Of a stretch of DNA of 64,000 nucleotides, positions 76 through 62,742 are shown piece after piece. The first letter of the stretch is position 1. Each line of letters starts with the position of its first letter. The position numbers were made by a program, and so were the translations under genes. The notes beneath the pieces were generated by a model. The model ran no database searches and was not told the origin of the DNA. It was given only the letters and a program-made list of their open reading frames with translations. This DNA comes from Reclinomonas americana ATCC 50394 (taxonomy: Eukaryota), in assembly GCA_048213135.1 (NCBI GenBank), contig PS015550.1, positions 1 through 64,000 on the forward strand, read 5' to 3'.

Positions 76-1256
76 GCCATCATACCTCGTCATCAATGCC
101 GACGAGAGTGAGCCGGGCACGTGCAAGGATCGCGAGATTATGCGACACGATCCGCACAAGCTGGTCGAGGGCGCGCTGCTGGCCGGTGTGGGCATGCGTG
201 CACGCGCAGGTAAATCACATCCTTCCCTCCCTCCCTCCCTTACTTCTCCCCTCTCTTCTCACACACTATCGCAGCGTACATTTACATTCGCGGCGAGTTC
301 TACAACGAGGCGCTGAACCTGCAGCACGCCATCGACGAGGCCTACAAGGCGGGATTGATTGGTCGCAACGCCTGCGGCAGCGGCTACGACTACGATGTGT
401 ACCTCCACCGTGGTGCTGGTGCGTACATTTGTGGCGAGGAGACTGCGCTGCTGGAGTCACTCGAGGGCAAGCAGGTGCGTGCGAGCGTGCACATGAAAGG
501 AATGCCATAGAGTGCGATTCTCACTATGTTCTGTGGCTGCTGCGCAGGGCAAGCCGCGCCTGAAGCCACCGTTCCCAGCCAATGTCGGTCTGTACGGTTG
601 CCCGAGCACTGTGACCAATGTGGAGACCATTGCCGTGGCCCCGACCATTCTGCGTCGGTTTGTTTCTCGAGTCGAAGTTGTTTCTACTGCTGCTGTGTGT
701 ATCACGCCCCAACACCTTCTCGTGTTGTCTGTCCAACAGTGGTGGTGACTGGTTCGCCGCGTTCGGACGCAAGAACAACAGCGGCACCAAGCTGTTCTGC
801 ATCTCCGGCCACGTCAACAACCCATGCACAGTGGAGGGTACGTCCATCTGTGTTTATGTGCCTTTGTTGCCACCGTAGGTACTCATTCCCTTTATCCCGC
901 AGAGGAAATGTCCATTCCTCTCCGCGAGCTCATCGAGAAACATGCCGGAGGTGTGCGCGGTGGCTGGGACAACCTTCTGGGCATCATCCCCGGTGGCTCT
1001 TCAGTACCTGTCCTGCCCAAGTCCATTTGCGACGATGTGCTGTTGCGTACAATATTCACGCGTTTATGTTGTGTGTCTCCTCTTCCTCCTACTCTCCGCT
1101 CACCACCTGAATCTCACTAGGATGGACTTTGACGCCCTGAAGGCCGTCAACAGTGGCCTCGGCACCGCCGCCGTGATGGTCATGGACAAGTCGACCGACA
1201 TTATCAAGGCCATTGCCCGCCTCTCCAAGTTCTACAAGCACGAGTCGTGCGGCCAA

Positions 1257-1289
<33 letters not shown>

Positions 1290-1558
1290 ATGCAGCTGAT
1301 GGACCGCTTCGTCGAGGGCAACGCCGACGTGCGCGAGATCGACATGCTGGATGTTGCGCAGCGCTTGCACTTCGTCGCTCTTATGTGTGTTGTGCTCATC
1401 TCCGGTTGCTCTGCCAGGAAATCTCTCGTCAGATCGAGGGACACACCATTTGCGCTCTGGGTGATGCTGCCGCATGGCCAGTGCAGGGCCTGATTCGTCA
1501 CTTCCGCCCCGAGATGGAGGCGCGTGTGAAGAAGTTCCAGGCCGCCCACCGCCGTTGA
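76..1558 (+). CDS. NDUFV1: NADH:ubiquinone oxidoreductase 51 kDa flavoprotein subunit (5' part outside window; 7 exons seen)
   Basis: Spliced motifs [71 protein letters not shown]; stop TGA 1556-1558. Confidence 0.97.
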
Positions 1559-2046: not shown

Positions 2047-4303
2047 CTAGCGTTGCCGCAGTGACGGCAGTGGGTCACTGTCGTGTGTTGTCGTGGTCGT
2101 TGTCGTGGATGTCGTTGTCATTGTCATCACTGCGGGTTCGTGGACAGTGGGCGACACGGCGCCTTCGTGATGCGCACGTTTTCGTGGCACCCACTCGTTG
2201 AGTTCTTGCTGTGCGAGTCGCTTCCGTGTCGTCGCCTGTGCAGCAAATAAACATGGTGTCAAAGACTGTGTGTGCTCGACGAACAGTGCGAAGAAGCATA
2301 CCTCTTCCGAGGCAGTGGCAGGTAATGTGCGTGCGACAACTGTCGACTGCACGAGCGCGCTAAACTTGCCGCCCGTCGGTGGCGTGTCTGGCGCATCGTC
2401 CACGCGATACATGCGCACGTGTGGCGATCCGGTGGCGAAACGGATGCAACCACGCGTTCGCGGGCTGTGTTTCACCTGCTGCCGCCGCCTCTCGTCCTCG
2501 GTGACGCTCAGCACCACACCGCGGTTCATCTCCGTGTTGAATTCGACCAGCGGCTCGTTTTCTGATGGAGAGGGGGCGACACAGAAGTGAGCAGGGGCCA
2601 GGAGATGCTTGGAAAATAAAGCACACACCTCGTTCCATGCTGTCGAGAGCGTTGGGATCGACCGTGACAACTGGAGGAAGGCGACGAGTGAGACATGCGA
2701 CAAAAAAACAGAGCGTGGCAACAAATATTAACTGGTGCGGGGAGAGGTTGGCGACGGCAGTGGTGAGGTATGCGGCGACGCGGTNNNNNNNNNNNNNNNN
2801 NNNNNNNNNNNNNNNNNNNNNNNNNNNNNNNNNNNNNNNNNNNNNNNNNNNNNNNNNNNNNNNNNNNNNNNNNNNNNNNNNNNNNNNNNNNNNNNNNNNN
2901 NNNNNNNNNNNNNNNNNNNNNNNNNNNNNNNNNNNNNNNNNNNNNNNNNNNNNNNNNNNNNNNNNNNNNNNNNNNNNNNNNNNNNNNNNNNNNNNNNNNN
3001 NNNNNNNNNNNNNNNNNNNNNNNNNNNNNNNNNNNNNNNNNNNNNNNNNNNNNNNNNNNNNNNNNNNNNNNNNNNNNNNNNNNNNNNNNNNNNNNNNNNN
3101 NNNNNNNNNNNNNNNNNNNNNNNNNNNNNNNNNNNNNNNNNNNNNNNNNNNNNNNNNNNNNNNNNNNNNNNNNNNNNNNNNNNNNNNNNNNNNNNNNNNN
3201 NNNNNNNNNNNNNNNNNNNNNNNNNNNNNNNNNNNNNNNNNNNNNNNNNNNNNNNNNNNNNNNNNNNNNNNNNNNNNNNNNNNNNNNNNNNNNNNNNNNN
3301 NNNNNNNNNNNNNNNNNNNNNNNNNNNNNNNNNNNNNNNNNNNNNNNNNNNNNNNNNNNNNNNNNNNNNNNNNNNNNNNNNNNNNNNNNNNNNNNNNNNN
3401 NNNNNNNNNNNNNNNNNNNNNNNNNNNNNNNNNNNNNNNNNNNNNNNNNNNNNNNNNNNNNNNNNNNNNNNNNNNNNNNNNNNNNNNNNNNNNNNNNNNN
3501 NNNNNNNNNNNNNNNNNNNNNNNNNNNNNNNNNNNNNNNNNNNNNNNNNNNNNNNNNNNNCCGTTTGCTGCTGCTACCGAGCCCGCCCCGCGCCTGTTGA
3601 GCCCCAACGGGCAGTGGCGGCTGCCGCTTGGAATCGGCAACATACTGAAAAACGCGTGGCGAGGCGCCAAATCGAACGGTCGTCTTGTCTCGAAGAGGCA
3701 TTGGAACGTGTGCAGGCAGTGGCGAGCCCTCCACCAGCGTGCCGTGTGCTGCACACACACACCCACAGAGACGAGTGTCAGCGCAAAGGGGCGGAGGCAC
3801 TCAGTGGAGAGGAAGGGAGAGCCCACGCGCACCCGAGCCCAAATCCATGATATATGAGCCGTGCTGGGAGTGCATTATCACTGCGTGCAGGCGGGATACC
3901 GACATGTGGGCCTCGACGATCTGATGGAGAGGCGGAGGAGCAAGTGAGCACTCGCGTGTACATGCATGTGGCGTCCGCCGCGGCGCGCAACTTGCACAGC
4001 CTCCGTCAGACGACCAATCAGATACAACGGCCTTGCACTGATCTCATATACTATTGCCTCTGCGGCCTCCTCTGGCGCAGCAGAGGCAGGAGCTCCCGTG
4101 TGTGTGGCATGCAGCACAGGGCGACTGCGCGATGCAGCACTGGGCACTGTGGCAGGAAGAGAGACATGTATGTGATTCACTGTATCGTATTATGCAGTGC
4201 GCGTCAGCTCGGAAACGCAACGACAACACCATGCGGGTGGCACAAACGATGGCAAGCCCGTCACACTGTCGGTGACCACCTTGCCCGCCTGCTGCCTCGA
4301 CAT
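2047..4303 (-). CDS. FHA-domain protein, NIPP1/PPP1R8-like (interrupted by gap 2785-3560)
   Basis: Spliced N-terminus MSRQ..FVPPAW, FHA core YLIGR..HMSVSRLHAVI..MDLGSAHGTLV..VRFGASPRVF. After the gap LVEFNTEMNR resembles NIPP1 LTEFNTAHNK. Linkage across the gap is inferred. Confidence 0.72.
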
Positions 4304-11200: not shown

Positions 11201-12947
11201 TCGGTGACTACTACCTCACGCCCGCCTCCTCTCGCGCCACTTCTCGCTGACTTTTTGCCACGCAGCCTCACCACGACGCAGATCAAGCAGCATCCGTTCT
11301 TCTTGGACGCCTCCGGCCGGCGCATGATGATTCAGCGCCTCGAGGAGAGCGGCAAGACGTTTGACAGCAAGGGTTTGTCGTGGCTTTCGACTCCATCGTG
11401 AGCCCTCTTCTTCTTCTTCTCATTTTCCCACTCACCCGTGATGTATGCAGCACGACGCATGCTGGAGGGGCTGCAGCCGAGCATTTCGGTGGGACGCATC
11501 GATCCGCAGCACTGGCGAGACACCCTGTGCAGCGCACTGCGAGTGCACGATTCCGATCGTTCCCGAGTGCTGACATCGTTGCGGTGCGACACCATGACGG
11601 CGAACGCGTGGGGCATGGTAAGTGGGGCGAGCGTGCACAGCGATCCCGCGCACAGCGGCACTCACCGATTCGAGTTGTGCAGGTCAAGTTCATGCGCAAC
11701 GTCATGACACACGCCAGTGATCCCGACTTTTCGCACGACTTGCTGGATCGCTTCTGCCACTTTGTCATGCCGAGTGGCGACGTGCGGCACGTGGCCGATG
11801 TGGAGCAGTTCTTCCACGAGCACCCGCTGTTTTCGTGGATCCTGCCGGAGGTGTGGAGCACCACGCAGGTGGATCACATTCGAAGTGTGCGCAACATGCT
11901 GGAGAACATTCCCAACTTTGACGCCATCTTCCGCGGCGACGCCGAGTCGGTGATGCGAGCCGTGGAGCAATTCCTGGCCAAGTCCATGAAGCGCACTGTG
12001 GACGGTCGCAGCACGCCAGAGTTGGAGGTGCCCGAGGTAAGGAACTCACACGTCTCGCGTTGTACGGGATCCCGAAGCTCACCTTGTGCGAAATGCAGTC
12101 TCGGCCTCGCGATCGCACACCGCCGGCGTCCCCACCGCTGCCTCCTTCGCGACCGCCGGCTTCAGCGCCAGCCGCAGTGCCGCTGCCTGCGGTGCAACTG
12201 CTGACCCCAGCCGCTGTCACTGCTGCTGCCAGCGCTTCGACTGCCTCACCGACAAGCGGTTCCTCGCGACGCCGCAATCGCCAGAATCGGCAGGCTGCCG
12301 CTGCGGCTGCCGCCGCCGCTTCAGCTGCTGACTCCACCGCTGACGCTGGCTCCGCTTCCTCTTCCGGCTCACGATCGCCCACACGCACTCCTCAAGCAGG
12401 TGGTCGAGCTCCGCCCGAGTACCGAGCTGTGGCTGCGGTGAGTTGCATTGTGCGCGGCAGTGGTGCGTAGTGTTTCTGACCACAACTCACACCTGTCGGT
12501 GCAGGCGAGTGCCGAGTGGAAGGCCGCACCCGCTCCGTCGCGCTCCTCGTCCGTCAAGCTGCCGCCGGACTTTGCTGGTGCGTATGTAGCGCGATGAATG
12601 TCGGTCTTGAGACACGCGCCTTCTCACTTCTTGATCGGCGCGCAGAGATCCCTGCACGCAACGAGCTCCACGCTTCGTTCACCAAGGACAACGGCGGCCC
12701 GTATCCTGGCCGTGTTCTCAACTGCAACGCCAAGCTGGGCACCGCCCACATTGAGTGGGAGGGTCAGGGCAGCAGCAAGCCGCTGGTGTACATGTACAAG
12801 ACTTCGTTGCAGGAGCCGGCGCGCTTTGCCGACATGATCAAGCCCGGTGCGCGTGTGACCATGTGGATCAAGAACAACCCGAAGATGATGCCGGGCAAGC
12901 CGATCCAGCCGTACGCCTACGCTGTCATTCTGCGCACGCAGCAGTAG
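8210..12947 (+). CDS. Ire1/RNase L-type Ser/Thr kinase-KEN endoribonuclease with putative RRM (N-terminal) and cold-shock/OB domain (C-terminal)
   Basis: GQGSYG, VAVK, HRDIKPNN, DFG, APE, DVFSLGAVLFFIWTGGLHP, IKQHPFF; KEN motif VKFMRNVMTH; all exons phase-compatible from ATG 8210 to TAG 12947. Confidence 0.82.
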
Positions 12948-13015
12948 AACCCAGTACGTAGAGAGCACAGGATGCTCGGTTTCCAATGTAGACTCATTGT
13001 AGACCAATCTCATAC

Positions 13016-14886
13016 ATGCGAAGGCCGCGCTCGTCGCCTGTTGCGACTGTGCTCCTCCTCTTCCTCCTCTGCTTCTGTTTCCTCCTTTCACCCTCGCCCT
13101 CCAGCGCCGACGCACTTGGTGACACTCGCGACTGCGATGCATCGTTTCCGTGGTCGCTCTTCACGCGCGCCAGCTGGCACCTGCTGCGTGGCGAGTCTCT
13201 GTCGTCGTCCGCCTCTCACCGCCCACCACACCATGGTGCAATGGCGCGCATCTCTGCTCCCTTTCGATTCCGTCGTCAGTGCCTCGCTGCATTCGAGTCG
13301 TGGTTGTCGCTCTCCGAGGTGTACATGACGCTGCAGTCGCCACGCAGCGGGCCCACACAGGTGCTGCATGCCGATGCCCCACTGGCGGCCGCACCACCTG
13401 GCGTCATTCGACGACACCCTGCATTCGATCGGGTGAGGAGGCGTGTGATCTTCAGAGACAAGTGATCGACTCACTCACTTGCACACCGCTGCGCACACAG
13501 GTGTCGGTGCTGTACGACGCTCCAGTGCGATTACCGACGAGTGCACGCGGCAGCAATGTCGGTCCACCAATGCTCATGCGATCGCCGACGCTCATGGAGC
13601 ACCAGCTCACCGACCCGTACCCGTCGTACTCGATCGTGGTGGAGAATGCGGTGTGTGTTCTCGCCCTCTTCCTCTGCACGAGCTGCGCGTGACCGTGACG
13701 TGCCATGTGCAGCTCGTCACTCCAGACGATGCGGTGTTCACCAAGGAGCACGTGTTGCTGGCACGTTCGTGTCTGCCGCGCGTGCTCGAGGCGCCCCGCA
13801 CGTGGGAGGCCACTGATGAGGTGCTGTTGGCCGACGCCGTGCTGCCGCTGCTGCAGATTTTCTCCGACGCACTGTTCCACATCATCATCGAGTCCCTCAC
13901 GCGCCTCATGCAAGTGTGGGACGAGGTGTACCCGGATCGCAGCATTGTGGTGCTCACACGACGGAGCACGTACGGGTCGCAGCTGACTCTGGATCTGTTT
14001 GAGGCTGTCGGCATTTCCGGCGATCGAGTTGCGCATGTGTGGTGCGGAATTTTTTGCACTCGGGATCCTCCATTCCTGACTGCCCACAGATCGTCCTCGA
14101 TCCGCCGCCGGTCATGGCACGCAAAGTGTACTTTGTGGCGGGTACCTACTGCACGCAGTCGCAGCCGTCGCTGTTGCACGAGATTGCTCGTGTCTTCAAC
14201 GTGCTGCACGGCGACATGGTGCGCGAGGTCATGCGAGAATACTGGAACTGTTGCGTCCAACGTTGCTGGTGCTGGTCAGCATGTGTATTCGCTGCTGAAT
14301 CGCACACGTGCAGCACGGCGCACTGTGCAACTGCGGACGCCGACGCCGAGCGGGCGTCCTCTGCGGCGTGTGGTGGTGATTGAGCGCAAGGGCGAGCGTG
14401 AGTTGGTGCAACACGACGAGGTGAGTGCTGTGCTTCTTTTCTTCATGCCTCCATCCTCCGTTGTGGCAAAGCTCACGTGGTGGCACACACTCATAGATCA
14501 TCGCCATGATGCAACGCGATTTCCCGCACTTTGAGATGGTGTTGTTGTCGCGCAACGCCACCGCCATGCAGGGAATCGTCGAGGTGGCCATGGCCGACAT
14601 TCTGTTTGGCGCGCACGGTGCGGGGTTCTCCTATCGCGCCTTTATCCGAGGTCGTCCGTGCGCCCACGTCGAAGTCATGTACCACGCCGGCTTCGCGTGG
14701 GGCATGACGTGGAATCCCGGTCTGGTGTTGATGGCCGCCGCGCAGGGCTGCAAGACGTTTGTGCACTTTGACGAAAAGGGCACGCAGATCAGCGCGTTGG
14801 ATGCACCAGTCGCCGATATCCGCTGGCTTCTGCAGCAGGCCGACGACTGGTTGGCCACGCAGGATGTGCGCAGGCCTTTCTCGTAG
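13016..14886 (+). CDS. Glycosyltransferase family 61-like, copy 1 (N-terminal signal/anchor)
   Basis: Hydrophobic N-terminus; LFHIIIESLTRL; IERKGERELV; ADILFGAHGAGF motif. Confidence 0.78.
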
Positions 14887-15072
14887 ACTAAAAGGAGACT
14901 GAGAGCGACGATTGCTGTCGATTTCCTCCTTCTCAGCCTGCTGCTGTTTGCGGCTACATGCGCAGAGATGGCCAGTGTCATGTCCCGGGCAGGCGACTGT
15001 GTTTTTGAGTCGCCAAGTGAAGAACAAAGGCCAGCGCGTGACTGACGCACAATTTCGTTTCTTTTTCCGACG

Positions 15073-17436
15073 ATGCACACGAGGAGAGCGCTTCTTGTCG
15101 CCCTTCTCGCCGCGGTGGTGTGTGTGACCTCATTTGTTTCTCGGTCTCCCCATCTCTCACTCTGCTGTGCTGCGTCAGGTGGTGTGCACATGTATGCTGG
15201 CATCTTCCGCCTCGATCGTCGGTGAGTATGCGTGTGTGCATTCTGCGTGCGCACACACGCACACGCTCATCATCGTCTGTCCGCAGATCAGAGCAGTGGA
15301 GACGCAGCTCTCGGCGTCTCTGCATCGCATCTCGACATCACTGCGGTGCGTTGTCTCTCGTCGGAGAGGAACTGCATGCATGTGAGACTCACGCAAACTC
15401 TGTTGCAGGTCCACGCATCGACGTCGCCTGAGGTGTTGCTGCCACACACCATCTGCCTCGTGTTGGATACAGTTTATCTCTCACACACCTCTCTTGCGCA
15501 GCACGAGGCCTGCCGACGCAACTTCCCGTGGTCACTCTTCTCGCCCGCCAGCTGGATCATGATGCGAGGCAGCAAGGCAGTCGACGACTCCTCGGGCCAG
15601 CCGCGACCACTGCACGTCGGTGCGTCGGCGCTGGTGATTCCGCCGTTCCAGATCCGCGCGGAATGTGCGGCCGCCTTCGAGTCGTGGCTGGCGCTGTCGC
15701 CCACGCTGCTGACGCTTGCTCGGGAGCCGCCACTGAAGCTGCGAGCCGAGGAACCCTTCGCTGTCATGTCGACGGCCAACAATCCGCGCTACGTGGTGCG
15801 TCGACACCCGCAGTTCGACATGGTAAGCACCCGATCTCTTCGCGTCTTTTCCTCTTTTGCGTCGCCTGAGTGTCTGTGCATGCATGATCAGCATCCTGTG
15901 CAACACGAACTGCCGGTGCGCCTGCCACACTTGCAGCAGCAGGATATTGGTCCGCCCATGATCATGCGCCCGGGCAACCTGATGGAGCACCGGCGGTCGC
16001 TGTACGTGCCGTGGGGCTCGATGGTGGTGGAGAATGCTGTTGCGTGTGTTGAAGATCTTCGGGTTATCGCCTTCGACTGCTCACTTGTGTACCTCGAGCG
16101 CAGCTCATCTCCCCACACGATGTTGTCTTCACCGACGATGCTGCCATGGAGGCGCGCTCATGTCGTACCGCGGACGCCAACCCGCAGCCAATGCCGATCG
16201 AGTGGTCGGTGAACCAGGCCGCGCTGCTGTTGGACGCGGCGCTGCCACTCATGCAGCTCTTCTCCCATCGCCTCTATCACATCATTGTCGAGTCGCTGCC
16301 GAGACTCATTGCGGTGCGTGGCGCGAAAAGTACAAGTTGGAAGCGACGTGAGAGACTGCTCACCTCGCACGCACACCTGCAGGTGTGGGACGAGGTGTAT
16401 GCCGATCGCAGCATCTTCATCTTGGCCAGTGCCGTCGAGCACGGCGACCAGGTGGTGGTCGACACGTTTGCCGCGGTCGGCATTCCACGCGAGCGAGTTG
16501 CGTGCCGTGTGGTTTACATAGCTGCACGCGCTGCTGTCACTTCGGTCGCTGGTCTCACGACGGCGCAGTTGATACTGAGTCCACCACCGGTCATGGCGCG
16601 CAAGGTGTACCTGGTGTCTGGTGTGTTTTGCACGCACCCGCATGCGACCGTGATACAAGGCATTCGTCGCGTGTTTGAGACTCTGCATGGTGACATGGTG
16701 CGAGCGGCTCTGCGGCAGTTGTGGGAGCGTTGCGTGGGCAGCCGCGCCTTGTGCTCTTGCAGTCTGTCACCCTCACACCTGCGCAGCGAATCGCCGACTG
16801 TGGGTTCGTGACGGGCCGCTGACGCGTCGTCGTGCCGTGCGCCGCATGGCCGTGTTCCAGCGCACGAAAACTCGTGCCCTGGTCGAGCACAACGAGGTGC
16901 GCACGACCGCATGTAGTCGATCGCTGTGTTTCGTTGCTGACGACGGCAGACACGCAGATTATGCACATGCTGCGGACCGAATTCCCCCACTTCGAGGTGC
17001 AAGTGATCCCCGACAACGCCACCGTCGCGCAGGGCATTCTGGCGGTGGCCAACGCTCATGTTTTGTTCGGGCCGCACGGTGCCGGCTTTGCGTTTGCGGC
17101 GTTTGGCATTGGCCGGCCGTGCGCTCACGTGGAGGTCACGTACGGTGGCAACGACAGAGGCATGTCGTGGAATCCGTGCCAGTTGGACGTCACGGCAGCA
17201 CATGTTGCGTGAAGAGGAGAAAGAAGGAGTGGGAAAGCGAGTGTCACCGCTCACCGCCACAGCAGGGATGCAAACAATTCTTCCTTTTTGACGAGTTCTC
17301 CAGCCAAATGCACCCGACAATCTCGGCACCGGTGAACGACGTGCGGTGGATCATGCAGCAGGTGGACGAGTGGCTCGAGTCGCAAATGCCTCTAACAGTA
17401 CCCGACGACGACGACGGAGACGGAGTATTTGGTTGA
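15073..17436 (+). CDS. Glycosyltransferase family 61-like, copy 2
   Basis: Paralog of copy 1 (FPWSLF, LYHIIVESLPRL, VLFGPHGAGF); start exons approximate. Confidence 0.76.
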
Positions 17437-17474
17437 GTGAAATCGTCCTGCTCCGCTACTACAACGCGACACGA

Positions 17475-19404
17475 ATGCCGAGCGCGCCTCGCCTCCTTTT
17501 CCGCCTCGCATTCCTCTGCTGCCTCCTCCTCCTCTCCCACACTCCACTCTCCTCCTCCGCCACACACGACAACGACGCCTGCGAAGACAACTTTCCGTGG
17601 TCACTCTTCGCCCCACGCTCATGGAGAATGGTGGTCGGCAGCGACGAGCTGCTCGACGACAGCATGCGTCCTTTACACAAGGGCGCCATGGCACACATCA
17701 GCGCACCCTTCCACCCACGTCTGTCGCGTTGCCGATCGCCCTGGTTGACAATCACTCGTGAGGCAATGAGTCTGCGAGAACCGCGTGTCGGGCCCGCCCA
17801 GGTGCTGCAAGAGTATGAGCCGTATGATATGATGGTGTCGACGGGGAATCCGCGGTGTACTCTGCGTCGACATCCGCGTTTTGATCGAGTTGAGTGAGGG
17901 CATGGAGATGATGATGATTGTCATTAGGCAGCTCAATTCCGTTCTCTTTCTGCAGCAACGTGTGCAGTACGCGATGCCTGTGCGACCGCCGCATGTGCGA
18001 CCGGAGGGAGTTGGCTCGCCGTTTGATCCGCGTCCGGGTGACATGATGGAGCACCGCCTGTCGAACCACATGCCATCGCACTCGATTGTTGTCGAGAATG
18101 CTGTTGCGTGCGTGCATGTCTTTGTGTGCAATGCATCTGATGCTCACTGGGAAAGAGAGAGCAGGTGGTGGCGCACAGTGGATTGGTGTTCACGCCCGAG
18201 TACATGCTGGCGCCGATCTCCTGCGAGTCCTTCAACCCCGATTTCCCGATGCAGTGGGAGACCACCACGAGTGCCGTGCTGGTGGATGCCGTGTTGCCGT
18301 TGCTGCAGGCGTTCTCCGGTGGCCTGTATCACACGGTGGGGGAGTCTCTGCCGCGGCTCATGCAGGTGTGGGACGAGGTGTATCCCGATCGGAGCATCGT
18401 GATTGCCACCACCAGCAGCGACTATGGAGCGCAAATGATGTATGATTTGTACGCGGCCGTGGGCATTCCGGCGGAGAGGGTGAGTGCGCGCCCTGTATGA
18501 GTGCAGAGAGAGTGTGTATATGTGGGCAAGCGAATAACCGTGTATGTGTGTGCATGTGCAGATCATCCTCGATCCGCCGGCGATCCTGGCCAAGAAAGTC
18601 TATTACGTTGGTGGTGTGTACTGCACCGATGCACAACGGTCGCTGGTGCACGAGATGAATCGTGTCTTTGACTTGCTGCACGGCGACATGGTGCGATCGG
18701 CTCTGCGCGAGCTGTGGCAACGTTGCGCGTGCATGCGCATTCATCTTTTATTGTCTTGTGTATCAACCACCACTTCGCTCGCTACAGCCAAGCGCTCTGT
18801 GCGGTTGCGCACCGATACCCCGTCTGGACGTGCTCTCCGACGCGTGGTGGTCATCAGCCGGGAAGGCCGGCGAGTCTTGGCTCGTGAGAGCGAGGTGAGT
18901 CTCTGTTGTCCTTTTTCTGAAATCATCTGTTCAGGTCCGTTGACGATTGCGGCGTGCAGGTCGTGGAGGCCATGCGACGCGAGTTTCCACATTTCGACGT
19001 GCATGTGCTACCGGCCAGCACATCAGTCGCCGCTGGCATCCTTGCAGTGCGTCACGCGCACATTCTGTTCGGCGCACACGGAGCTGGCTTTGCGTACGCT
19101 GCTTTCGGTGCCACTCGCCCGTGTGCCCACGTGGAGATCACGTACGGCCGTCGCCTCCCCTACTTTATGAAGTGGAACCCGTGCCAGATGATCCTGTCGG
19201 CGCCACACGTTCGTCGCCATCGCTTTTGCGGAGAAAATCCGACGCAGTCGCCACTGACTTATTGGTCTGCAGGGTTGCAAGCCGTTCTTTTTGTTCGACG
19301 ACGACGCGGAACAGCATGCACCAGCACTCAAGGCCCCATGGGACGACATTCGATGGCTCTTGCAACAGGCAGACGAGTGGCTGGACTCGCAGCGATTGCC
19401 GTGA
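17475..19404 (+). CDS. Glycosyltransferase family 61-like, copy 3
   Basis: Signal peptide, FPWSLF, LYHTVGESLPRL, ILFGAHGAGF; shared intron positions with copies 1 and 2. Confidence 0.78.
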
Positions 19405-19590
19405 AAGTAAGTCACGTGTACGTGATCGATCGGCCTGTCGAAGTCCGCAGCGACGAAAGCGCGAAAAAGCCGCCTGTCGCTGGCCAGCGGAGCTCACCTC
19501 CATGCGCCATCACGTCGAGCCACACGTCCGCTCGAGAGAATGAAGACGTTCATCGCGACTTGTCCTTTGTCATCTTCGTCAAATTCAATC

Positions 19591-22356
19591 ATGAGTGCCG
19601 AGGGGGAGGCCAGTGGCTCATCGCCCACCATGTCAGACATCACATCGCTCATGTCGCAACGCCAGTGGAAGCGCGCCGACGAGCAACTCACGGCCATGCT
19701 CACCGATTCCTCTGCTCCTGCAGTTGCTTCCACACAGATGTTTTTTCGCGCGCAAAATCACACGCACTCTCTCAACTGAGGATTGCTACAGACTCAACGC
19801 GCGGCCGCATTGCTTGCACGGAGTGTGACGCGAGTGCGACAGACAGAGGCAGTCGACTTGGAGTTCTCACAGAGCGCAGAGGTGATTGAGCGGCGAACGG
19901 AGTTGTTGAATCAAGTGAGTGTGCGTGTTCTCTCCGGGAGCCCTGATTCACGCACTCATTCGGGCGGTCGTCTTGCAAGGCTCTGGCGGATGTGGAAGCT
20001 GCGCGAGAGGCCGACAGCGGCATGTCGCCAGTGGTCTATCTGATGCACAAGGGCGACGCGCTGGTGCATCGCAAGTCGGTGCCTGGATCAATCCGCGAAG
20101 GTCACTCGCCCCGAGCAAGCAAGAAGCTGTGCTGTATGTGCTCACGGCCTCTCTCCGTGCAGGACTCACGTGCCTGCTGCAGGCCGCTGAGCAGGAGCCA
20201 GAGAACGCCGAGTGCCTGATTCGTTTGGGTCACGCACACTTGAGCTGTGCGGACTTGGCCAGCGCCGAGGCAGCGTGGCGCAAGGCCGTGGGCCTGGCGC
20301 CCGACTCGGTGGAGGCCGTGCACTGGCTGGCGGTGGCGTTGGACTTGCTGGGCCGAGGCCACGAGTCGGTGTCGATGTTCATTGTTGAGTTGTCGCGCGG
20401 GAAGGCAATGAGATCCCACAGACTCATCGTCACTCGTGCACACAGCGTGCAGTCAAGTTGGAGGCCAACGACGCCGAGATCTACATTCACCGCGGCATGG
20501 CGATGGAGCGGCTGAAGAGAGTTTCGTCCTTGCGTGCATCTCGTACGATGATGACCTGGGAGGCTGACTGGGGCCGGCACACAGTTCCACGAAGCGTTCA
20601 CCGATTACGAGCAAGCCGTGGCACTCGAGCCCAACAACCCACGCGCTCTGCGGCTGCGTGGTCAGCTCCACCTGTCCATGGGCAAGCCGGTGCTGGCCGA
20701 GCGTGATCTGACCGCGTCGGTGAGATCACCTTTCTTTGCACACTCAGTGTGTCTGCCACTTGTCTCACTTGTGGAGTGCGCAGATCACGTTGTGCCCGGA
20801 GCAAGACTTTTTGGTGTACGCGTTGCGTGCGCGCTCCTTTGATGCCATTTGCTCCGTGACGCAGTCGGGTCGGGAAACCGAGGCACCCGTGGACCCGGCC
20901 GCCCTCGGCACGATGGCGCAGCGTTCCGTTGCCGATCTCACGCACGTGTTGAGCAAGGTACGCATCGTGAGGTCGAACCGAGAGACTATGTCGTTGATGC
21001 TGACCTGCCGTACTCAGGATCCGAAAAACCTCGATGCGCTGCGTGGCCGTGCAGCCATTCGGGCCAACTATTTGCAGGAGATCGACGCGGCGCTGCAGGT
21101 GTGTGTGACTCGTATCTCGCGCGTGCGCACACACTGTCGTTGGTCTTGACTCTTGAATGCACCAGGACTACGAGCGTGTGATCGAGCTGGACCCCGATCC
21201 AATGCCAACGGTTTTGCTCTCCTACGCCAGGCTAATGTGCCTCCACTGCCCCGACAACAAGTACGCAGCACTCGATGCGTTCTCGCGCAGCATCCATGCG
21301 ATGGAGCGTGAGGTGATTCTTTGTCATGTGCTACTGCGACTGCATGTCTCGTTGCTCACATTGGCGCCATATCAAGTCCGACCGCGGTTACTGGTCGGCC
21401 GAGTTGTGTGACGCGCTGTACGATCAAGCGTGGATCGAGCGTGAGTTGGGCCTGTACGAGGAGGCCGTGCGCGACTACTCGCGGATTGGGCACATTGAGA
21501 AGATCCAGCCCGACGTGTTCCCCCGCTGGCTGATGGAGCGCGCGGCCGATCGCATTGTGCTCAACGATCAGTTGCGTGTTGGTGGCATGCACAGTTTTGT
21601 GATTCGTCATCCTCACTCTCGTCTTTCTCTGGCATGCAGTGCGCTGGCGATGCGCGATCTGCTGGCCGTCCTGCACCACTCACCCGACAGCACCGACGCA
21701 CAAGAGACCATGCAGGAACTGGTGTCGCGCGGGTGCACTGCGGCCGATGCCGCCACCGAGGATCTGGATCCGGTGTCGCCTCCGGGCCTGCTGTTCTCCA
21801 TTCGCCGTCTGAAGGCGCGAGGCAGCGAGATGCTGCGCGAGGAGGGCGTGCCACTGGAGCACTGTGTGGCGCAGTACGAGCGCACAGTGGGTTTCTTCGA
21901 GGAGCTGGAGACGCACAAGCGCAAGATGACCGAGGAGGAGAGGGAAGAGGAACGCAGATTGCGCATCTCCATCCACAACAACATTGCGCTGTGCCAGTTG
22001 CGCGGCGGCCGTCCGGACGCGGCTCGTGCCCTGTGCGCGCAGGTGTTGGAGTTGGATCCCAGCAACATCAAGGCCCGCATGCATCTCTTCATGGTGGCCA
22101 CGGCGCAGCACAACGACGTGGAGGCGCTGAAGGCGCTGGAGAGCGTCGAGGATCAGCTGCCCGAAGAATTCCGCAGGTGCGTTCTTGTGCACGCTGTTTC
22201 TCAACACCTACTGCCTACTCATGTTGTATACTGCCAAACAGCCGTCTGGACGAGCTCCGACGACGAGTGGGTGACGTGCCAGCTGAAGTCGCCGCCGCCG
22301 CCGCCGTTGTGGAGGCACCGCCACCGGCCGAGGTGTCAGCCGAACCGGCACCATAG
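19591..22356 (+). CDS. Tetratricopeptide-repeat protein
   Basis: Many TPR-type helices (AECLIRLGHAHL..AEAAWRKAVGLAP; DYEQAVALEPNNPRALRLRG; NNIALCQLR..QVLELDPSNIKA). Confidence 0.8.
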
Positions 22357-22490
22357 ATGTAGACGGAGGGGTACTGGCCTGAGGAGTGGATGTGAGTGAA
22401 CAAGAGATTGACGAACCTCAAAGGGTGAACGAACTTCGAGCTGGGAGTTGTCCCTGCGTCCGTGTAATTCCGTCGTTTGGTGTCGGTGCC

Positions 22491-26558: not shown

Positions 26559-27269
26559 NNNNNNNNNNNNNNNNNNNNNNNNNNNNNNNNNNNNNNNNNN
26601 NNNNNNNNNNNNNNNNNNNNNNNNNNNNNNNNNNNNNNNNNNNNNNNNNNNNNNNNNNNNNNNNNNNNNNNNNNNNNNNNNNNNNNNNNNNNNNNNNNNN
26701 NNNNNNNNNNNNNNNNNNNNNNNNNNNNNNNNNNNNNNNNNNNNNNNNNNNNNNNNNNNNNNNNNNNNNNNNNNNNNNNNNNNNNNNNNNNNNNNNNNNN
26801 NNNNNNNNNNNNNNNNNNNNNNNNNNNNNNNNNNNNNNNNNNNNNNNNNNNNNNNNNNNNNNNNNNNNNNNNNNNNNNNNNNNNNNNNNNNNNNNNNNNN
26901 NNNNNNNNNNNNNNNNNNNNNNNNNNNNNNNNNNNNNNNNNNNNNNNNNNNNNNNNNNNNNNNNNNNNNNNNNNNNNNNNNNNNNNNNNNNNNNNNNNNN
27001 NNNNNNNNNNNNNNNNNNNNNNNNNNNNNNNNNNNNNNNNNNNNNNNNNNNNNNNNNNNNNNNNNNNNNNNNNNNNNNNNNNNNNNNNNNNNNNNNNNNN
27101 NNNNNNNNNNNNNNNNNNNNNNNNNNNNNNNNNNNNNNNNNNNNNNNNNNNNNNNNNNNNNNNNNNNNNNNNNNNNNNNNNNNNNNNNNNNNNNNNNNNN
27201 NNNNNNNNNNNNNNNNNNNNNNNNNNNNNNNNNNNNNNNNNNNNNNNNNNNNNNNNNNNNNNNNNNNNA

Positions 27270-30200
27270 GTGAAGCGGCAGTGGAATGTGAAGAGGAGGA
27301 GCCACGCAACATCGAATACCGACTGTCCCGCTGATCTCTTGACGACGGTGACGCCGTCGAAACTCTCCTCCACGAACCTACACGGAAAGGAGTGAGAAAT
27401 GGATCACACAGAAACAAGCGCGGTATTTGCTGGACGCACGCTTCCAGCGCGCCCTGGAACTCCACATCGCACGAAGTGGTCATCTTGAAGCCACCGCCCA
27501 GACGCTCCTTGAGCTGATGAGGTGACATGCGATGAGCTAAACCCGAGGCAAGCAGAGGAGTGAGCGAGAAACAGAGACACACCTGCGGCCCGTTGCCGAG
27601 ACATCGCAAACGACCCTGCGCCATGATGCCGACACGAGCTGCGAGAGAGAGAGAGAGGACGGTTAGTGGGATGAGGGGGGAAAGCGTCGCTAGCTGGGGA
27701 CGCAACTGCACAAGTGCTCGGCCTCCTCCATCGAGTGCGTGGTGCTGCGGAATGCGAGTGAGCGATCAGTGCACCACAGGAGGGGGACTTGTGTGAAGCA
27801 GGCAGACGCACAGCATAATGGCCTGCCCAGCTCGCTGGCATGCACGGATGGCGGACCACACTTGCTGCCGAGACGATGGATCCAAGCCCTGCAAGCAGGA
27901 TTGTCAGTCACTGAAAAGCTGCATGGACATCCACAGCGCGGTACGCACAGTTGTTGGCTCGTCGCACAGCATAATCTGTTGCACGCAAGGGTCAGATCGA
28001 TTACGACACAAGAAAACATCATCATCAGTCGCGCGCAACTTTCGGATTGCCAGTCATGCCGATGGCGACGCAGAGTCGTCGCTTCATACCGCCACTATAG
28101 TTCCGCGATAGCTTATTGCGAACTTCCCACAGATCCACACTTCGGAGTCGGTTAACAATTTCCACACCAAGTGCCGGCCCTGTGTTGTCGAGCACCAAAC
28201 ACATGAGGCTCGCACGACTGCGTGTCCCTGAAAGCACGACTGCAGACTCACCGTGATAGCCCTTTAGCCTCGCGAAAAAGGCAATATGCTCCTCTGCGGT
28301 CAGCGTCGGCCACAAGATATTGTGCTGCGCAGTGCGTGTGTGTGAGAAAAGGAGATATTTGCTGTCGCCCCTGGGGAGAGAAAAAACACAAGGCAAACCT
28401 GTGTGCACACGCCCAGCAGCTGGTAAATCTTGTCGGTTCCGCGCTTAATGTCGTGGCCGTTCATGAAAATGGCACCCGAGTCGGCAGGGAAGAGGCCGGC
28501 GATCATGTTGAGGAGAGTGGTCTTGCCGGCGCCGTTGTGGCCCAACAAACCAAAGCACTCGCCAGGCTTCACCTGCAGTGAAAAGTCGGTCACCGCCTGC
28601 CGATGTGCTCCCTGCGCGTGAGTCGATGACAGAGTGAGTGGAGAGATTAAAGGCAGCGTGCGCGCGAACCACAACCCCCGACGCAACCGAGTACTGCTTG
28701 CACACATCTCGCACTGTGATGCCGCGCCGAGATCGACGACTGTACGCCCGTTTTCTCTCATCGGCCACATCGATGGGCATCAGCGGCTCCTCGTCAATGG
28801 CCTGCTCCTCGACGTCGCTCTCAAAGGAACGCTGATACGGGAGAAAGGTGTAAATGCCACGCCTTGATTCGACGACCACTGGCAAGCGAGCACGCAACTG
28901 GCGAGAGCTGCGAAGGGGAGCTCGCTCGACTGGGAATGTCGTCGAGCTCCATGTCATCACCACTGTCTGAGTCCGCATCGTCGCCGTCGCAGCAGGAGCA
29001 GCAAAAGTCGCGAGAGCACAGGAAGCATGGATGTTTGGGGAGACCGACAGCGCCAAAAATCACCTGTGGAAATATTGTCATACGCCGGGGGGAAACTCAC
29101 AGCGATCCACGCGTCACGAACCTGCTCCGTGTACCAAGCGAGAATCAAGTACACCAGCGCCCACGCCCCCAGGTAGACGTACGTCGATCCGAGTCCAGAC
29201 GACCAAATGTCGCCCACTTGAATGCCGGTGGAGTAGTTTGCCGTGGCGCGGCTTAACCGGAGGAGTCCCCTGGTAACACAACGAGTAAGTGAGTAGCAAA
29301 TCCTCGCGTGGGCAGAGACAATCGACAAGAACTAAACGCACCGCACAAAAGCAAACGTCGGAATCATGCTGGTGACGAATTCAGCCGAGAATGGCGACGA
29401 TTCTTGTCGGGCGAGCCATGTCGAGTTGACCACCGTGGCCACCATCACGAGCGGCAGTAGAATCATGAAGCCCACCACTACAAAGAGAACACCGCTAATG
29501 TCAGTACCGCGCTCATTCGCTCTTTGTGATCACGTGTGCACTACGCACCAAAAGCGCTGTTCTGCGTCTGGAATAGTGTGGAGATGAAAAAACTAAAGGC
29601 GACCAGCGCCAGTCCCCACGCCAGAAACAGGATGACGTAGGCGGGGATGGAGTTCTGCGTGAAGAATCGGAACCGTAATACGCCGCCCATTGCCAGCAGA
29701 ATGACCAGCTGCAGCAGATAGAAGGTGTAGTCCCACAAGAAGCTGACGCTCCAATAGAGACTCGGTCTGAGTCCCATGAGGCGCATCAAGTAGCGAAGCT
29801 TGTGCTCCTTTTCTTGTGCCAATGTCTGTGGGCAGACGGGCAAGTGGTGAGAATCAACGCAAGCAATACAAGTAGCAGAGCGCACAACGCACCCCCATGA
29901 ACACCGGGAACAGCATGTGCAGAATCAAGGCCTGCGCGGTGAAGAAGAAAGGAGGTAAGAAGGGAGGAGCGTGGGGGTGATCGCGGGAGAAGGTGGCGCG
30001 CAACGTAGTAAAACACTTCGACGAATGCCACAATGTCGAACCGCGCGTCGTCGTCGGCATTCGTGGGGAACCGCTTCAGAGCTGTTGATGTGTGTGCGTC
30101 ACGAGTCAGCAAGCCTCAGATGCACACGTAAACACACGAGAAAGAGCTCCACGGAACTGGTCTTGAGCGAGCCTGACGAGTCCTTGGCCAGCTTGAACAT

Positions 30201-38728: not shown

Positions 38729-39366
38729 ACTCGTAAGTGAGTCATACAAGAATGTGTATCGATACAATGATAAGTCATGTGCTCATCAACTCCCACTGCA
38801 TCGACTTTCTGCACGCAGAGTCGTTGCGATGCAATCGTGATACAGAGAGAGACGCAGCGGTTCTCTGCTTTGGCTCTCACAAGCAGGCACGCGCTCCGCC
38901 CACTGCAGTGAGTTCCACAATTGATTACAAATTAGTTTGTACTTTTGTAGCGCAGCGTGTTCAGAAACTCCAACACACTCTCCCTTCCTCACTTCCTCCC
39001 CCCCTCACTCCCCTCCCCCAAGTGGCGCATGATGTCGACCAACAGCACTCGTCGCTGACGCATTCAATGCAATGCATGCAAGAGCGAGTCGTTAAACTTC
39101 ATTTCAAATGCACTAAACTCCTCTCCCTTTCTCCCTCACACTCCCTCCTTCCTCCCTCTCTCACACACACACACGCTGCGCTCAGCGGCAGCAGCACGAC
39201 TGGCAGTCGGGATGCCCAGTGCAGCACGCAACGCACCAGCACAGCAGCCACACCGGCACAAAGAATNNNNNNNNNNNNNNNNNNNNAAGGGGGAAAGGCG
39301 GAAGCGCTCGCGGGAGTTGTTGTTTTTCCGTTGATGTATGTATTACTCATCATTGTATTGTCGTCG

Positions 39367-41953: not shown

Positions 41954-41990
<37 letters not shown>

Positions 41991-61255: not shown

Positions 61256-62742
61256 ATGTCGTTCGGCATCAAGGGTTGCGTTGCGGGTAGAGGAGAAGAG
61301 GGGGAGGAGCGATAGAGGAGTGCAATGCAGTTTGTTTGTTTGGTGTGAAATGGCGCTCTCTCTCTCTCACAACTTTGTGCCTGTGTCTGTGTGTGCATTA
61401 GTTCTGGGCACTCGCGGTGCGGTGCAGGCCGAGTCTGCGCAGTTCACAGTCGGCTCTGCGCGTCAGAAGGCCTTCTGGGGTCAAGTGGTGACGCTGTTGC
61501 GTGAGGAGTGCCATGCTCATGACGCACACACCTCTGTCTCCCTCTCTCTCTCTTTCTCGCACCCAACTGACACACACACGCACGCACACACGTTGCATGT
61601 CTTTGCTGCTGTCTCTCTCTCACACACTGTATGTGCAGGCCAATGGGTGACGGTGCACTGCTGGTGCAGTTGTTTGACGATGACGATCAGGAGGCTGGTG
61701 AGTGTGTGTGTGTCTCTCTCTCTCTCTTGTGTACATCAGTGTCAGAGCAAGTGAGGGATAAGAAAGGAGAGAGAGAAGAGAGAGTTATGTTGCATGGTGA
61801 TCGTATTTGAAGTGCATTGCATCGCGTGTTGTATGTGTGTGTCGTGTCTTTGTGTGCGTGCGCGTGTGTGTGTATGTGTGTGCGTGTGCGTGTGTCTGTG
61901 CATCGCATACTCAGCCTTCTTCCTCTTCTTCTTTCTCGTTCTTTTGTCGCAGCTCGCGTGACCATTGACCTGCACACTGTGGCTCCCAACTCGAGCGACT
62001 GGTTCGACCTGAGCAACGGCTCTGGCGCTGTGCAGCTGAACTTTGAGGCCGTCGGCGGTTGCGTCCTCTGTCTCTTCGTGATGATGATGATGATCGCGCA
62101 CCTCTCATGACTCGTCTGGCTAATGTAACAGGTGCCGTGGCCATGGACGACGATCCGTTTGGCGCACCGGCGGCCTCGGGCTCTGGCTTCCAGCAGGTCG
62201 ACTCCGAGGAGGAGGAGGAAGAGGAGGAGAGCGAGGAGGAGGAGGAGGAGCACCACAGCTCGGAGCCAACGCCGCTCATGTTGTGGCAGGAGAAGCACAA
62301 TGCGGAGCTCATTGAGCGCGCCACCGCCGCGCGTGCCAAGCGCGACGAGCGCAAGACCGGCGCCCGCGACTGGTTGAAGAAGTTCTACGAGGATCGCGAC
62401 GGCAAGCTGTCTGCCAAGCAGAAGCTCAACCGGTGCGCTTTACATTTTTGGTAACCATTCATCCCTCCCTTGCCGCCCTTCTCAACCCCGCCCCGCATGT
62501 GCAGCCAACAAAACCAGGCTCTGGTGGAGAAGATCAATGCCAACCTCGGCGTTGGTCAGATCTGGGAGCGTGTCAGCAACCTCATCAACATGGGCGCCAA
62601 CTCGGCCGGTCGCAAGGACGTGGCTCGCATGCGCTCTGTGCTGCTGCAGGTGAAGAACTCGACTCCGGCTCACTTGGCGCGTCACGACGCCGTCGCCGCT
62701 GGCGGCCGTGGCGGTGCTTCGGGCTCGGCCGATCTGTTCTAA
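61256..62742 (+). CDS. Clathrin light chain with N-terminal C2-like domain
   Basis: CLC pattern LWQEK..KKFYE..NR..IWERVSNLI..KDVARMRSVLLQVK. Upstream exons give LLVQLFDDDD..VTIDL..DWFDL..GAVQLNF. Confidence 0.78.

What the first reader, a model, noticed from the sequence alone, without database searches (positions are those of the whole stretch)
13433..18486. Paralogous introns flip donor class when the last exon base changes (GT61 triplet)
Seen at three homologous intron positions. (a) CGG|gtgagg (13433) and ATG|gtaagc (15823) versus CGA|gttgag (17889). (b) GCG|gtgtgt (13651) versus GCT|gttgcg (16039, 18103). (c) CGA|gttgcg (14028, 16497) versus AGG|gtgagt (18480). Synonymous Arg and Ala codon changes co-vary with a 1-nt indel in the donor. 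Inference: compensatory evolution that links codon choice to splice register.
Basis: seen in the sequence. Interest (0 to 1): 0.78.

Follow-up and report, generated by a model that had tools for sequence, protein, structure and literature searches.

The report
Two donor classes tied to exon end
In this stretch of a eukaryotic genome about a third of the introns start with GTTGCGT instead of the usual GTRNGT, these introns almost never follow a G, and related gene copies have switched between the two forms at the same intron positions.

Summary
Three tandem GT61-like paralogs (13.0-19.4 kb, + strand) share six intron positions, and all nine quoted donors sit at the stated coordinates. Across the 18 introns of these genes, 9 of 9 GTTG-type donors follow A, T or C, and 8 of 9 other donors follow G.

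The pattern is not special to these genes. I inferred 113 donors in the window. Of these, 42 are "late-core" donors (T at +3, G at +6), and only 1 follows G. The other 71 are ordinary donors, and 61 follow G (Fisher 4e-20).

Two late-core donors in the conserved NDUFV1 gene give gapless alignments to solved structures.

At 27 intron positions shared by paralogs I found 7 class switches. Four also change G to non-G at the last exon base; three do not. No late-core copy carries G.

Best reading: there are two 5' splice-site states, and the second is read one base out of register (a +1 shifted U1 register). The two states are shown here; the register is inferred. No RNA data, snRNA gene or whole genome was available.

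The parts
13016..14886 (+). GT61-like paralog 1: 6 exons and 5 introns (13433-13500, 13651-13712, 14028-14089, 14250-14313, 14421-14496).
   Evidence: Manual model with an open frame of 512 codons. The equivalent exons of copies 2 and 3 give weak Pfam PF04577 hits.
15502..17436 (+). GT61-like paralog 2 (its 5' end upstream to about 15073 is not settled): introns 15823-15891, 16039-16103, 16314-16382 (this copy only), 16497-16568, 16729-16786, 16897-16957, 17204-17265.
   Evidence: Pfam PF04577 hit, E 2e-5, 25.3 bits against a cut-off of 27, on exon 16958-17203.
17475..19404 (+). GT61-like paralog 3: introns 17889-17955, 18103-18164, 18480-18561, 18722-18787, 18895-18959, 19209-19272.
   Evidence: Pfam PF04577 hit, E 1.7e-4, on exon 18960-19208.
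13433..13500 (+). Position A intron of copy 1, ordinary donor after G. Its homologues are 15823-15891 (ordinary, after G) and 17889-17955 (late-core GTTGAGT, after A).
13651..13712 (+). Position B intron of copy 1, ordinary donor after G. Its homologues 16039-16103 and 18103-18164 are late-core GTTGCGT donors after T.
14028..14089 (+). Position C intron of copy 1, late-core donor after A. Homologue 16497-16568 is late-core after A; homologue 18480-18561 is ordinary after G.
14250..14313 (+). Position D intron (phase 1), late-core in all three copies (also 16729-16786 and 18722-18787), after T, C and C. Cutting one base later would create an in-frame TGA in copy 1.
   Evidence: read directly from the sequence.
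1042..1120 (+). Late-core intron (T|GTTGCGT) in the NDUFV1 gene.
   Evidence: The flanking exons 905-1039 and 1122-1352 match chain 6g72_F at 291-334 and 337-412. With the last residue of the first exon and the split codon counted, there is no gap.
1353..1417 (+). Second late-core intron (T|GTTGCGC) in NDUFV1.
   Evidence: Exons 1122-1352 and 1418-1555 match 6g72_F at 337-412 and 414-458, with no gap.
27976..28039 (-). ABCA paralog A1 intron, AAA|GTTGCGC (late-core). Its homologue in A2, 33077-33147, is AAG|GTAAGA (ordinary). This is a fourth switch that comes with a synonymous G/A change.
27639..27706 (-). ABCA A1 intron TGCA|GTTGCGT. Its homologue in A2, 32735-32802, is TGCA|GTGCGT.
27378..27439 (-). 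ABCA A1 intron C|GTGCGT (ordinary donor after a non-G base). Its homologue in A2, 32456-32528, is A|GTTGCGT. This is a switch in which neither copy has G.
62058..62131 (+). The only late-core donor that follows G (GGCG|GTTGCGT), in the clathrin light-chain gene.
   Evidence: Predicted by both gene-finder passes, and no better in-frame donor lies nearby. Pfam PF01086 hits on the downstream exons.

Best explanation
The window uses two kinds of GT donor.

Proposed mechanism. In ordinary donors the exon-final G pairs with U1 snRNA (and U5), so it is kept. In late-core donors the intron's own first G takes that slot, and the whole U1 (and probably U6) helix is displaced one base downstream. This is the +1 shifted register known from rare human sites. 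The cut still falls before the only available GU. The exon-final base then occupies the slot that canonical position -2 normally fills, so G is no longer needed and A is favoured. Synonymous codon choice at the exon end therefore follows the donor class.

Shown here: the intron positions, the two classes, their link to position -1, and the class switches between paralogs. Inferred: everything about the snRNAs. I put the descriptive part at about 0.9 and the shifted-register mechanism at about 0.4.
For: (1) Of 113 inferred donors, 42 are late-core, with -1 = A 20, T 14, C 7, G 1. The other 71 are ordinary, with -1 = G 61, A 3, C 3, T 4 (Fisher 4e-20). In the hand-curated subset of 70: late-core 29 with G in 0, ordinary 41 with G in 33.

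(2) The result holds without using any donor information. A crude gene finder that required only GT gave 21 GTTGNG donors (1 after G) and 59 others (37 after G), p = 2e-6. A scan that scored only intron bases gave 36 late-core candidates on the sense strand (1 after G) against 5 on the antisense strand.

(3) GTTGCG followed by an intron-like tail is strand-specific: 11 versus 2 in the block of plus-strand genes and 13 versus 2 in the block of minus-strand genes.

(4) Two late-core junctions in NDUFV1 give gapless alignments to solved structures. The ABCA and GT61 junctions are gapless between paralogs.

(5) The late-core positions +4 to +7 (G 34 of 37, C 33, G 37, T 27) mirror the ordinary positions +3 to +6 moved by one base.

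(6) A at -1 is enriched: 20 of 42, against 10.6% A at third codon positions (p = 2e-9) and 18% before GTTGCG that is not a donor (p = 1e-5). This fits an A:U pair with the U1 base that normally faces position -2.

(7) With an assumed human-like U1 5' end, ViennaRNA folds A|GUUGCGUG in exactly the shifted register, and G|GUUGCGUG flips to a 3-bp canonical register.

(8) Late-core and ordinary introns have the same length (median 67 versus 68), the same GC content, the same CAG acceptor and the same branch-like motif position. This points to one spliceosome.
Against: There is no RNA evidence for any junction. No U1, U6 or U5 gene is in the window and no whole genome is held, so the U1 sequence is assumed.

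T is also enriched at -1 (14 of 42), which pairing with U1 does not explain. The -1 distribution of the late-core class differs from the -2 distribution of the ordinary class (chi-square p = 0.012).

C at +5 is kept in 33 of 37 late-core donors. The matching ordinary position +4 is C in only 28 of 67, and a canonical U1 would not pair with it.

Nearest-neighbour energies with the assumed U1 give almost no stability to the shifted duplex when -1 is U or C (-0.3 kcal/mol). They give more to the unshifted U|GUGCGUG (-1.9). Yet 41 of 51 donors after a non-G base are shifted.

The depletion of G before late-core donors is only marginal when compared with the same hexamer elsewhere (1 of 35 versus 11 of 61, p = 0.05).

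Forty-three of the 113 donors come from my own crude gene finder, which recovered only 11 of 18 hand-curated GT61 introns.

The sample is one 64-kb window.
Confidence: 0.5

Rival explanations
1. The late-core motif HGUUGCGU is read by a dedicated factor: either a variant U1 snRNA whose 5' end is complementary to it, or an RNA-binding protein. Under this view it is not the standard U1 slipping by one base.
For: The motif is sharper than a shifted copy of the ordinary consensus. C at +5 is present in 33 of 37 late-core donors, against 28 of 67 at the matching ordinary position. The assumed canonical U1 gives little predicted stability when -1 is U or C. The class is very common, 42 of 113 donors.
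Against: No snRNA gene could be examined. The 3' signals and lengths of the two intron classes are the same. Paralogs switch class freely, which is easier if one machinery reads both.
Confidence: 0.2
2. [quoted passage not shown] Donors that lack the exon-final G need a strong intron motif. In this genome the strongest intron motif happens to carry an extra T, with no change of snRNA register.
For: Ordinary donors after a non-G base are exactly GTGCGT in 6 of 10 cases, against 14 of 61 after G (p = 0.025). The anticorrelation of the two sides is described for animals and plants (PMC11732430, passages read).
Against: Compensation alone predicts that G at -1 is unnecessary, not depleted, in the strong-intron class: the count is 1 of 42, against backgrounds of 18-37%. 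It also does not explain why the conserved G and T sit at +6 and +7 rather than +5 and +6.
Confidence: 0.15
3. Bulged-U register: U1 pairs with -1, +1 and +2 as usual, one of the two Us bulges out, and pairing resumes at GCGU.
For: Registers with a bulge at +2/+3 are validated for human sites (PMC4856993, passages read).
Against: This register keeps the pair between -1 and U1 C9, so G at -1 should be kept or enriched. It is found in 1 of 42 late-core donors.
Confidence: 0.07
4. The pattern is an artefact of chance, base composition or my gene models.
For: GGTTG is under-represented in the window generally: G precedes other GTTGNN hexamers in about 16% of cases. Forty-three donors come from a weak gene finder. 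There is no RNA support.
Against: In the hand-curated subset alone, 0 of 29 late-core donors and 33 of 41 ordinary donors follow G. The exon bases were never used for prediction or classification. The motif is strand-specific. The NDUFV1 alignments are gapless.
Confidence: 0.04
5. Late-core introns are copies of a mobile intron element (an introner) that brings its own GTTGCGT end and inserts after A or T.
For: The 5' end is sharply conserved and the lengths are uniform.
Against: With the donor octamer removed there are 0 blastn hits among 40 introns (19 late-core). The lengths equal those of ordinary introns. The same intron position is late-core in one old paralog and ordinary in another.
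Confidence: 0.03

Closest known systems
+1 shifted-register 5' splice sites of human genes (Roca and Krainer 2009, as summarised in Tan et al. 2016, PMC4856993; passages read. The 2009 paper itself is not held, so its details are recalled.)
   Same: The donor is cut at a GU, while the bases that match U1 lie one position further into the intron. There is a pyrimidine at +3 and an A before the cut in the example oligonucleotide shown. The predicted fold of A|GUUGCGUG with a human-like U1 end is this register.
   Different: In humans these are rare, atypical sites (a rarity I recall rather than tested). Here the class makes up 42 of 113 donors. It has a fixed GCGU core, tolerates T and C at -1, and is nearly free of G at -1. 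No U1 sequence or suppressor test is available here.
[quoted passage not shown] Parker et al. 2022, PMC9803359, and the LUC7 paper, PMC11842720, were seen only in the search listing.)
   Same: Exon-side and intron-side matches are anticorrelated. One class relies on the exon-final G and the other on intron bases. Local switches between classes are proposed there as an easy evolutionary route.
   Different: The intron-side class here is not //GURAG. Its core is displaced by one base (//GUUGCGU), and G at -1 is depleted rather than merely dispensable.
Bulge +2/+3 U1 registers (Tan et al. 2016, PMC4856993)
   Same: There is an extra U right after the GU, and pairing can resume downstream.
   Different: That register keeps the pair at -1, so it predicts G at -1. 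Here G at -1 occurs in 1 of 42 late-core donors.

Membership tests
+1 shifted-register 5' splice site | Cleavage occurs at a GU although the U1-matching core lies one base further downstream than usual. | tested here: inconclusive
   The cut sites are inferred from reading frames, paralog alignments and gapless NDUFV1 alignments. The core G and T sit at +6 and +7 in 37 and 27 of 37 late-core donors. No RNA data are available.
+1 shifted-register 5' splice site | Predicted pairing to the U1 5' end is more stable in the shifted register than in the canonical one. | tested here: inconclusive
The organism's own U1 is unknown.
+1 shifted-register 5' splice site | The exon-final base behaves like canonical position -2, with A favoured. 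| tested here: inconclusive
   A is found in 20 of 42, which is an enrichment. But T is found in 14 of 42, and the distribution differs from -2 of the ordinary class (p = 0.012).
+1 shifted-register 5' splice site | Splicing is rescued by suppressor U1 only in the shifted register. | not testable with these tools
   This needs minigene experiments.
Bulge +2/+3 U1 register | The -1 G to U1 C9 pair is kept, so G at -1 is retained. | tested here: not met
   G at -1 occurs in 1 of 42 late-core donors.
Two major 5' splice-site classes (U5-type AG//GUNNN, U6-type NN//GURAG) | Exon-side and intron-side consensus matches are anticorrelated. | tested here: met
   After a non-G base there are 41 late-core donors and 10 ordinary ones, of which 6 are exactly GTGCGT. 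After G there are 61 ordinary donors and 1 late-core donor.
Two major 5' splice-site classes (U5-type AG//GUNNN, U6-type NN//GURAG) | The intron-side class reads //GURAG at +1 to +5. | tested here: not met
   The late-core class has T at +3 (by definition), G at +4 in 34 of 37, C at +5 in 33 of 37 and G at +6 in 37 of 37.
U12-type (minor spliceosome) introns | A 5' end of RTATCCTT and a distinctive branch site near the 3' end. This definition is recalled, not taken from a call. | tested here: not met
   The position table shows no such motif. The branch-like motif, acceptor and length are the same in the two classes.
Introner elements | Copies share sequence along the whole intron. | tested here: not met
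   There are 0 non-self blastn hits among 40 introns once the donor octamer is removed.
Glycosyltransferase family 61 (Pfam PF04577), for the three host genes | A Pfam match above the gathering score. | tested here: inconclusive
   Only single exons could be scanned. They scored 25.3 and 22.3 bits against a cut-off of 27 (E 2e-5 and 1.7e-4), covering profile positions 80-129 of 137. A profile search of 1.84 billion proteins gave 12 hits at E 0.001 or better (best 8.8e-9), and none at 1e-10 or better.

The most novel reading that the evidence does not exclude
In this lineage the spliceosome routinely cuts one base upstream of where the snRNA helices are centred. A +1 shifted register, or a dedicated second U1, would then serve more than a third of all introns instead of a handful. 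As a result, the choice of A- or T-ending codons at exon ends, in a genome whose third codon positions are 73% G or C, would directly report the splice register. Introns would move between registers by single T gains and losses.
Probability: 0.35. Interest if true: 0.8.

Novelty: new variant of a known kind. Interest (0 to 1): 0.64.

Why it matters
Non-canonical U1 registers are known mainly as rare exceptions in human genes. A genome in which a shifted-core donor is a major class would be a natural system for two questions. First, how is the cut site fixed when the U1 and U6 pairing is displaced? Second, how do splice signals constrain synonymous codon choice at exon ends?

It also matters in practice. 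Gene finders trained on GTRNGT donors would misplace about a third of the introns in such a genome. My own donor-blind finder did so repeatedly.

If the organism's genome paper already describes this donor class, the finding reduces to a tidy paralog illustration of it.

Tried and rejected
- RNA evidence: no RNA holder was listed for 12500-22400.
- Whole genome: none is held.
- Earlier findings: nothing for this genome or for these words.
- Homologues of the GT61 copies: the word-indexed search of longer proteins found none. A metagenome scan with a three-paralog exon alignment found none. A profile search of 1.84 billion proteins gave only 12 weak hits, the best at E 8.8e-9. I did not use those hits.
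- Orthologous introns: a metagenome scan with an NDUFV1 exon returned 80 loci. All read through without an intron at this site; 9 were first flagged by my regular expression but are contiguous on inspection. They were of no use.
- snRNA genes: no family reached its gathering score, and no snRNA of the spliceosome appeared at E up to 1.
- My dynamic-programming gene finder was weak because the codon signal is low. It recovered 11 of 18 curated GT61 introns with a donor model and 10 of 18 with a paralog bonus, which also produced shadow genes. I therefore used only the intersection of passes 1 and 2 (59 introns from 80 and 82), and of those only the 43 that lie outside the hand-curated regions.
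- Rows dropped before counting: the A1 site TCG|GTTGCGT at 28687, because the A2 paralog reads through here and three in-frame donors 12-18 nt downstream fit it better; the unsettled 5' introns of GT61 copy 2 (15222, 15346, about 15432); and a pass-2-only donor of the third ABCA gene.
- Alternative cut one base later (intron TT..AGN): rejected, because it puts TGA in frame in GT61 copy 1 intron 4. It cannot be told apart at the two NDUFV1 sites, where the next exon starts with G.
- Literature: searches by motif and by concept found no paper describing a GTTGCGT donor class. The library misses most subscription journals, so this is weak evidence of absence.
Full report
**What is at the locus.** The region 13.0-19.4 kb holds three tandem genes on the plus strand. 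I built their models by hand from open frames and GT..AG pairs.
- Copies 1 and 3 give complete products of 512 and 507 residues. Copy 2 gives 492 residues from 15502 onward; its 5' end is unsettled.
- The three products align without gaps across every junction.
- The genes share six intron positions. One of these occurs only in copies 2 and 3, and copy 2 has one extra intron. That makes 18 introns of 58-82 nt.

**The observation.**
- Over the 18 introns, 9 donors are of the GTTG type and follow A, T or C.
- Of the 9 others, 8 follow G. The exception is 19209, C|GTTCGTC, whose G and T sit at +5 and +6 as in ordinary donors.

**The pattern runs through the whole window.**
- GTTGCG occurs 96 times on both strands, about twice as often as its one-letter variants.
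- With an intron-like tail it is strongly strand-specific: 11 versus 2 in the block of plus-strand genes and 13 versus 2 in the block of minus-strand genes.
- A crude gene finder that knew only 'GT' as a donor already returned 21 GTTGNG donors (1 after G) and 59 others (37 after G), p = 2e-6.
- A scan scored on intron bases only gave 36 late-core candidates on the sense strand (A 17, T 11, C 7, G 1) against 5 on the antisense strand. It gave 52 ordinary candidates (30 after G) against 16 antisense.

**The donor set.** I curated by hand GT61 x3, the 3' part of NDUFV1 (76-1558), two tandem ABCA paralogs on the minus strand (A1 27.3-31.7 kb, A2 32.1-37.3 kb) and two tandem genes of unknown family (B1 and B2, 39.4-45.6 kb). 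That gave 70 donors. I added the 43 donors outside these regions that both gene-finder passes agreed on. I classed a donor as late-core if it has T at +3, G at +6 and a non-G at +5; no exon base was used.

| Set | Late-core donors | Base at -1 | Ordinary donors | Base at -1 |
|---|---|---|---|---|
| All 113 | 42 | A 20, T 14, C 7, G 1 | 71 | G 61, A 3, C 3, T 4 |
| Curated 70 | 29 | G 0 | 41 | G 33 |

Fisher p for all 113 is 4e-20.

**Are these really introns cut where I say?**
- NDUFV1 is the best test. Exons 905-1039, 1122-1352 and 1418-1555 match one solved chain (6g72_F) at 291-334, 337-412 and 414-458. With the last residue of each exon and the split codon counted, there is no gap at the two late-core junctions 1042 and 1353.
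- The ABCA junctions keep the spacing between the two paralogs.
- I considered a cut one base later, giving an exon-final G and an intron TT..AGN. It is excluded by GT61 copy 1 intron 4, where it would create an in-frame TGA. It cannot be told apart at the NDUFV1 sites.
- No RNA run was listed, so every junction remains an inference.

**Paralog switches.** Twenty-seven intron positions are shared by paralogs: GT61 6, ABCA 19, B1/B2 2. Seven differ in class.
- Four switches come with G in the ordinary copy and non-G in the late-core copy, always through a synonymous third-position change: GT61 positions A, B and C, and ABCA 28039 AAA| versus 33147 AAG|.
- Three switches do not. ABCA 27439 has C against A at 32528. 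GT61 17204 has T against C at 19209.
- None of the 9 late-core copies at switched positions follows G.
- None of the 20 unswitched positions differs in G status (Fisher 0.002).
- The forms H|GTGCGT (6 of the 10 ordinary donors after a non-G base) and H|GTTGCGT differ by one T. A one-step route between the classes therefore exists that leaves the codon alone.

**What distinguishes the classes.**
- Late-core positions +4 to +7 (G 34, C 33, G 37, T 27 of 37) look like ordinary positions +3 to +6 moved by one base.
- The introns are otherwise alike. Median length is 67 versus 68, GC is 0.557 versus 0.543, CAG acceptors are 18 of 19 versus 19 of 21, and the branch-like motif lies at similar distances. 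There is no sequence similarity between introns. This argues for one spliceosome and against a mobile intron family.

**Codon effect.** Third codon positions in 2833 curated codons are A 10.6%, C 36.1%, G 37.4% and T 15.9%.
- The 13 phase-0 late-core donors in those models end in A 6, T 5, C 1, G 1. These 13 include the ambiguous site 28687, which supplies the single G.
- A or T in 11 of 13 has p = 2e-5.
- Over all 42 late-core donors, A is enriched (p = 2e-9 against third positions; 1e-5 against GTTGCG that is not a donor). G is depleted (p = 7e-8 against third positions; 0.002 against non-donor GTTGCG).
- The direct comparison for the hexamer itself is only marginal: 1 of 35 against 11 of 61, p = 0.05.

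**Mechanism.** The simplest reading is the +1 shifted U1 register, defined for rare human sites (PMC4856993, passages read; review PMC9311317, passage read; the original 2009 paper is not held).
- The intron's first G takes the place of the exon-final G opposite U1. The T at +2 is mismatched, and T-G-C-G-T pair as +2 to +6 normally do.
- The cut still falls before the only GU.
- The exon-final base then faces the U1 base that normally meets -2, which favours A.
- With an assumed human-like U1 end, ViennaRNA folds A|GUUGCGUG in exactly this register, and G|GUUGCGUG falls back to a 3-bp canonical register. This hints at why G might be disfavoured. It is a hint only, because the organism's U1 is unknown.

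**What this reading does not explain.**
- T is enriched at -1.
- C at +5 is nearly fixed.
- The -1 distribution of the late-core class differs from the -2 distribution of ordinary donors (p = 0.012).
- The shifted duplex has low predicted stability with U or C at -1, although 41 of 51 donors after a non-G base are shifted.
- These gaps keep two rivals open: a variant U1 or a protein that reads HGUUGCGU, and the known exon-side versus intron-side compensation between U5-type and U6-type sites (PMC11732430, passages read).
- The bulged-U register predicts G at -1 and is disfavoured.

**Verdict.** The last exon base and the donor class are coupled, but asymmetrically, and the paralog switches are local examples of a two-state donor grammar that runs through the whole window. 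This is a new variant of a known kind: shifted-core donors as a major class. Three cautions apply. Everything rests on 64 kb of sequence without RNA data. The organism is unidentified and poorly sampled in protein libraries. My literature searches cannot exclude that the donor class is already described for this lineage.

Noticed in passing
window 2785-3560, 26559-27268, 39267-39286, 41226-41953, 45977-46112, 50163-50411, 51179-51620: There are seven runs of N (assembly gaps or masked stretches). The apparent low-GC islands in the composition profile are these runs, not AT-rich DNA.
   Followed up: yes
window 33691-33704 (-): ABCA paralog A2 has a 14-nt micro-exon flanked by two ordinary introns (donors 33771 and 33690) just before the Walker A region. 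Paralog A1 reads through here without an intron.
   Followed up: partly
window 35227-36194 (-): This intron of ABCA A2 is 968 nt long and full of GA-rich and CT-rich tandem repeats. The homologous A1 intron (donor 30157) is 76 nt. Both have late-core-type donors after A.
   Followed up: partly
window 48741 (+) versus 28398 and 33477 (-): In a third ABCA-like gene (48345-49921) the intron at the conserved GVC-x-Q site is phase 1 with a late-core donor (CAA T|GTTGCG). In A1 and A2 it is phase 0 with ordinary donors after CAG. The intron position therefore appears to differ by one base. The model for this gene comes from my gene finder only.
   Followed up: partly
window 28687 (-): TCG|GTTGCGT in ABCA A1 was chosen as a donor by my gene finder. 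A2 reads through this stretch, and in-frame donors 12-18 nt downstream fit the A2 protein better, so this GTTGCGT is probably coding sequence. I excluded it from the counts.
   Followed up: partly
window 39470-42620 and 42781-45600 (-): Two tandem paralogs, about 70-80% identical at the protein level, have no Pfam match on any exon tested. All five of their inferred donors used in the counts are ordinary, and four of them follow G.
   Followed up: no
window 15073-15501 (+): The 5' end of GT61 copy 2 seems to be built from two or three very short exons with ordinary donors after G (15222, 15346, about 15432). I could not make the frames join and left them out.
   Followed up: partly
window 27811, 27948, 32905, 33031 (-): Two homologous ABCA intron positions have T|GTGCGT in both paralogs, so an ordinary donor after a non-G base can be stable over the age of the duplication.
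   Followed up: yes
window 13016-19404 (+): The GT61-like genes have no close relative among 1.84 billion representative proteins. There were 12 hits at E 0.001 or better (best 8.8e-9) and none at 1e-10 or better. The window's own proteins were not found in the word-indexed collection either. The source lineage seems poorly sampled.
   Followed up: partly
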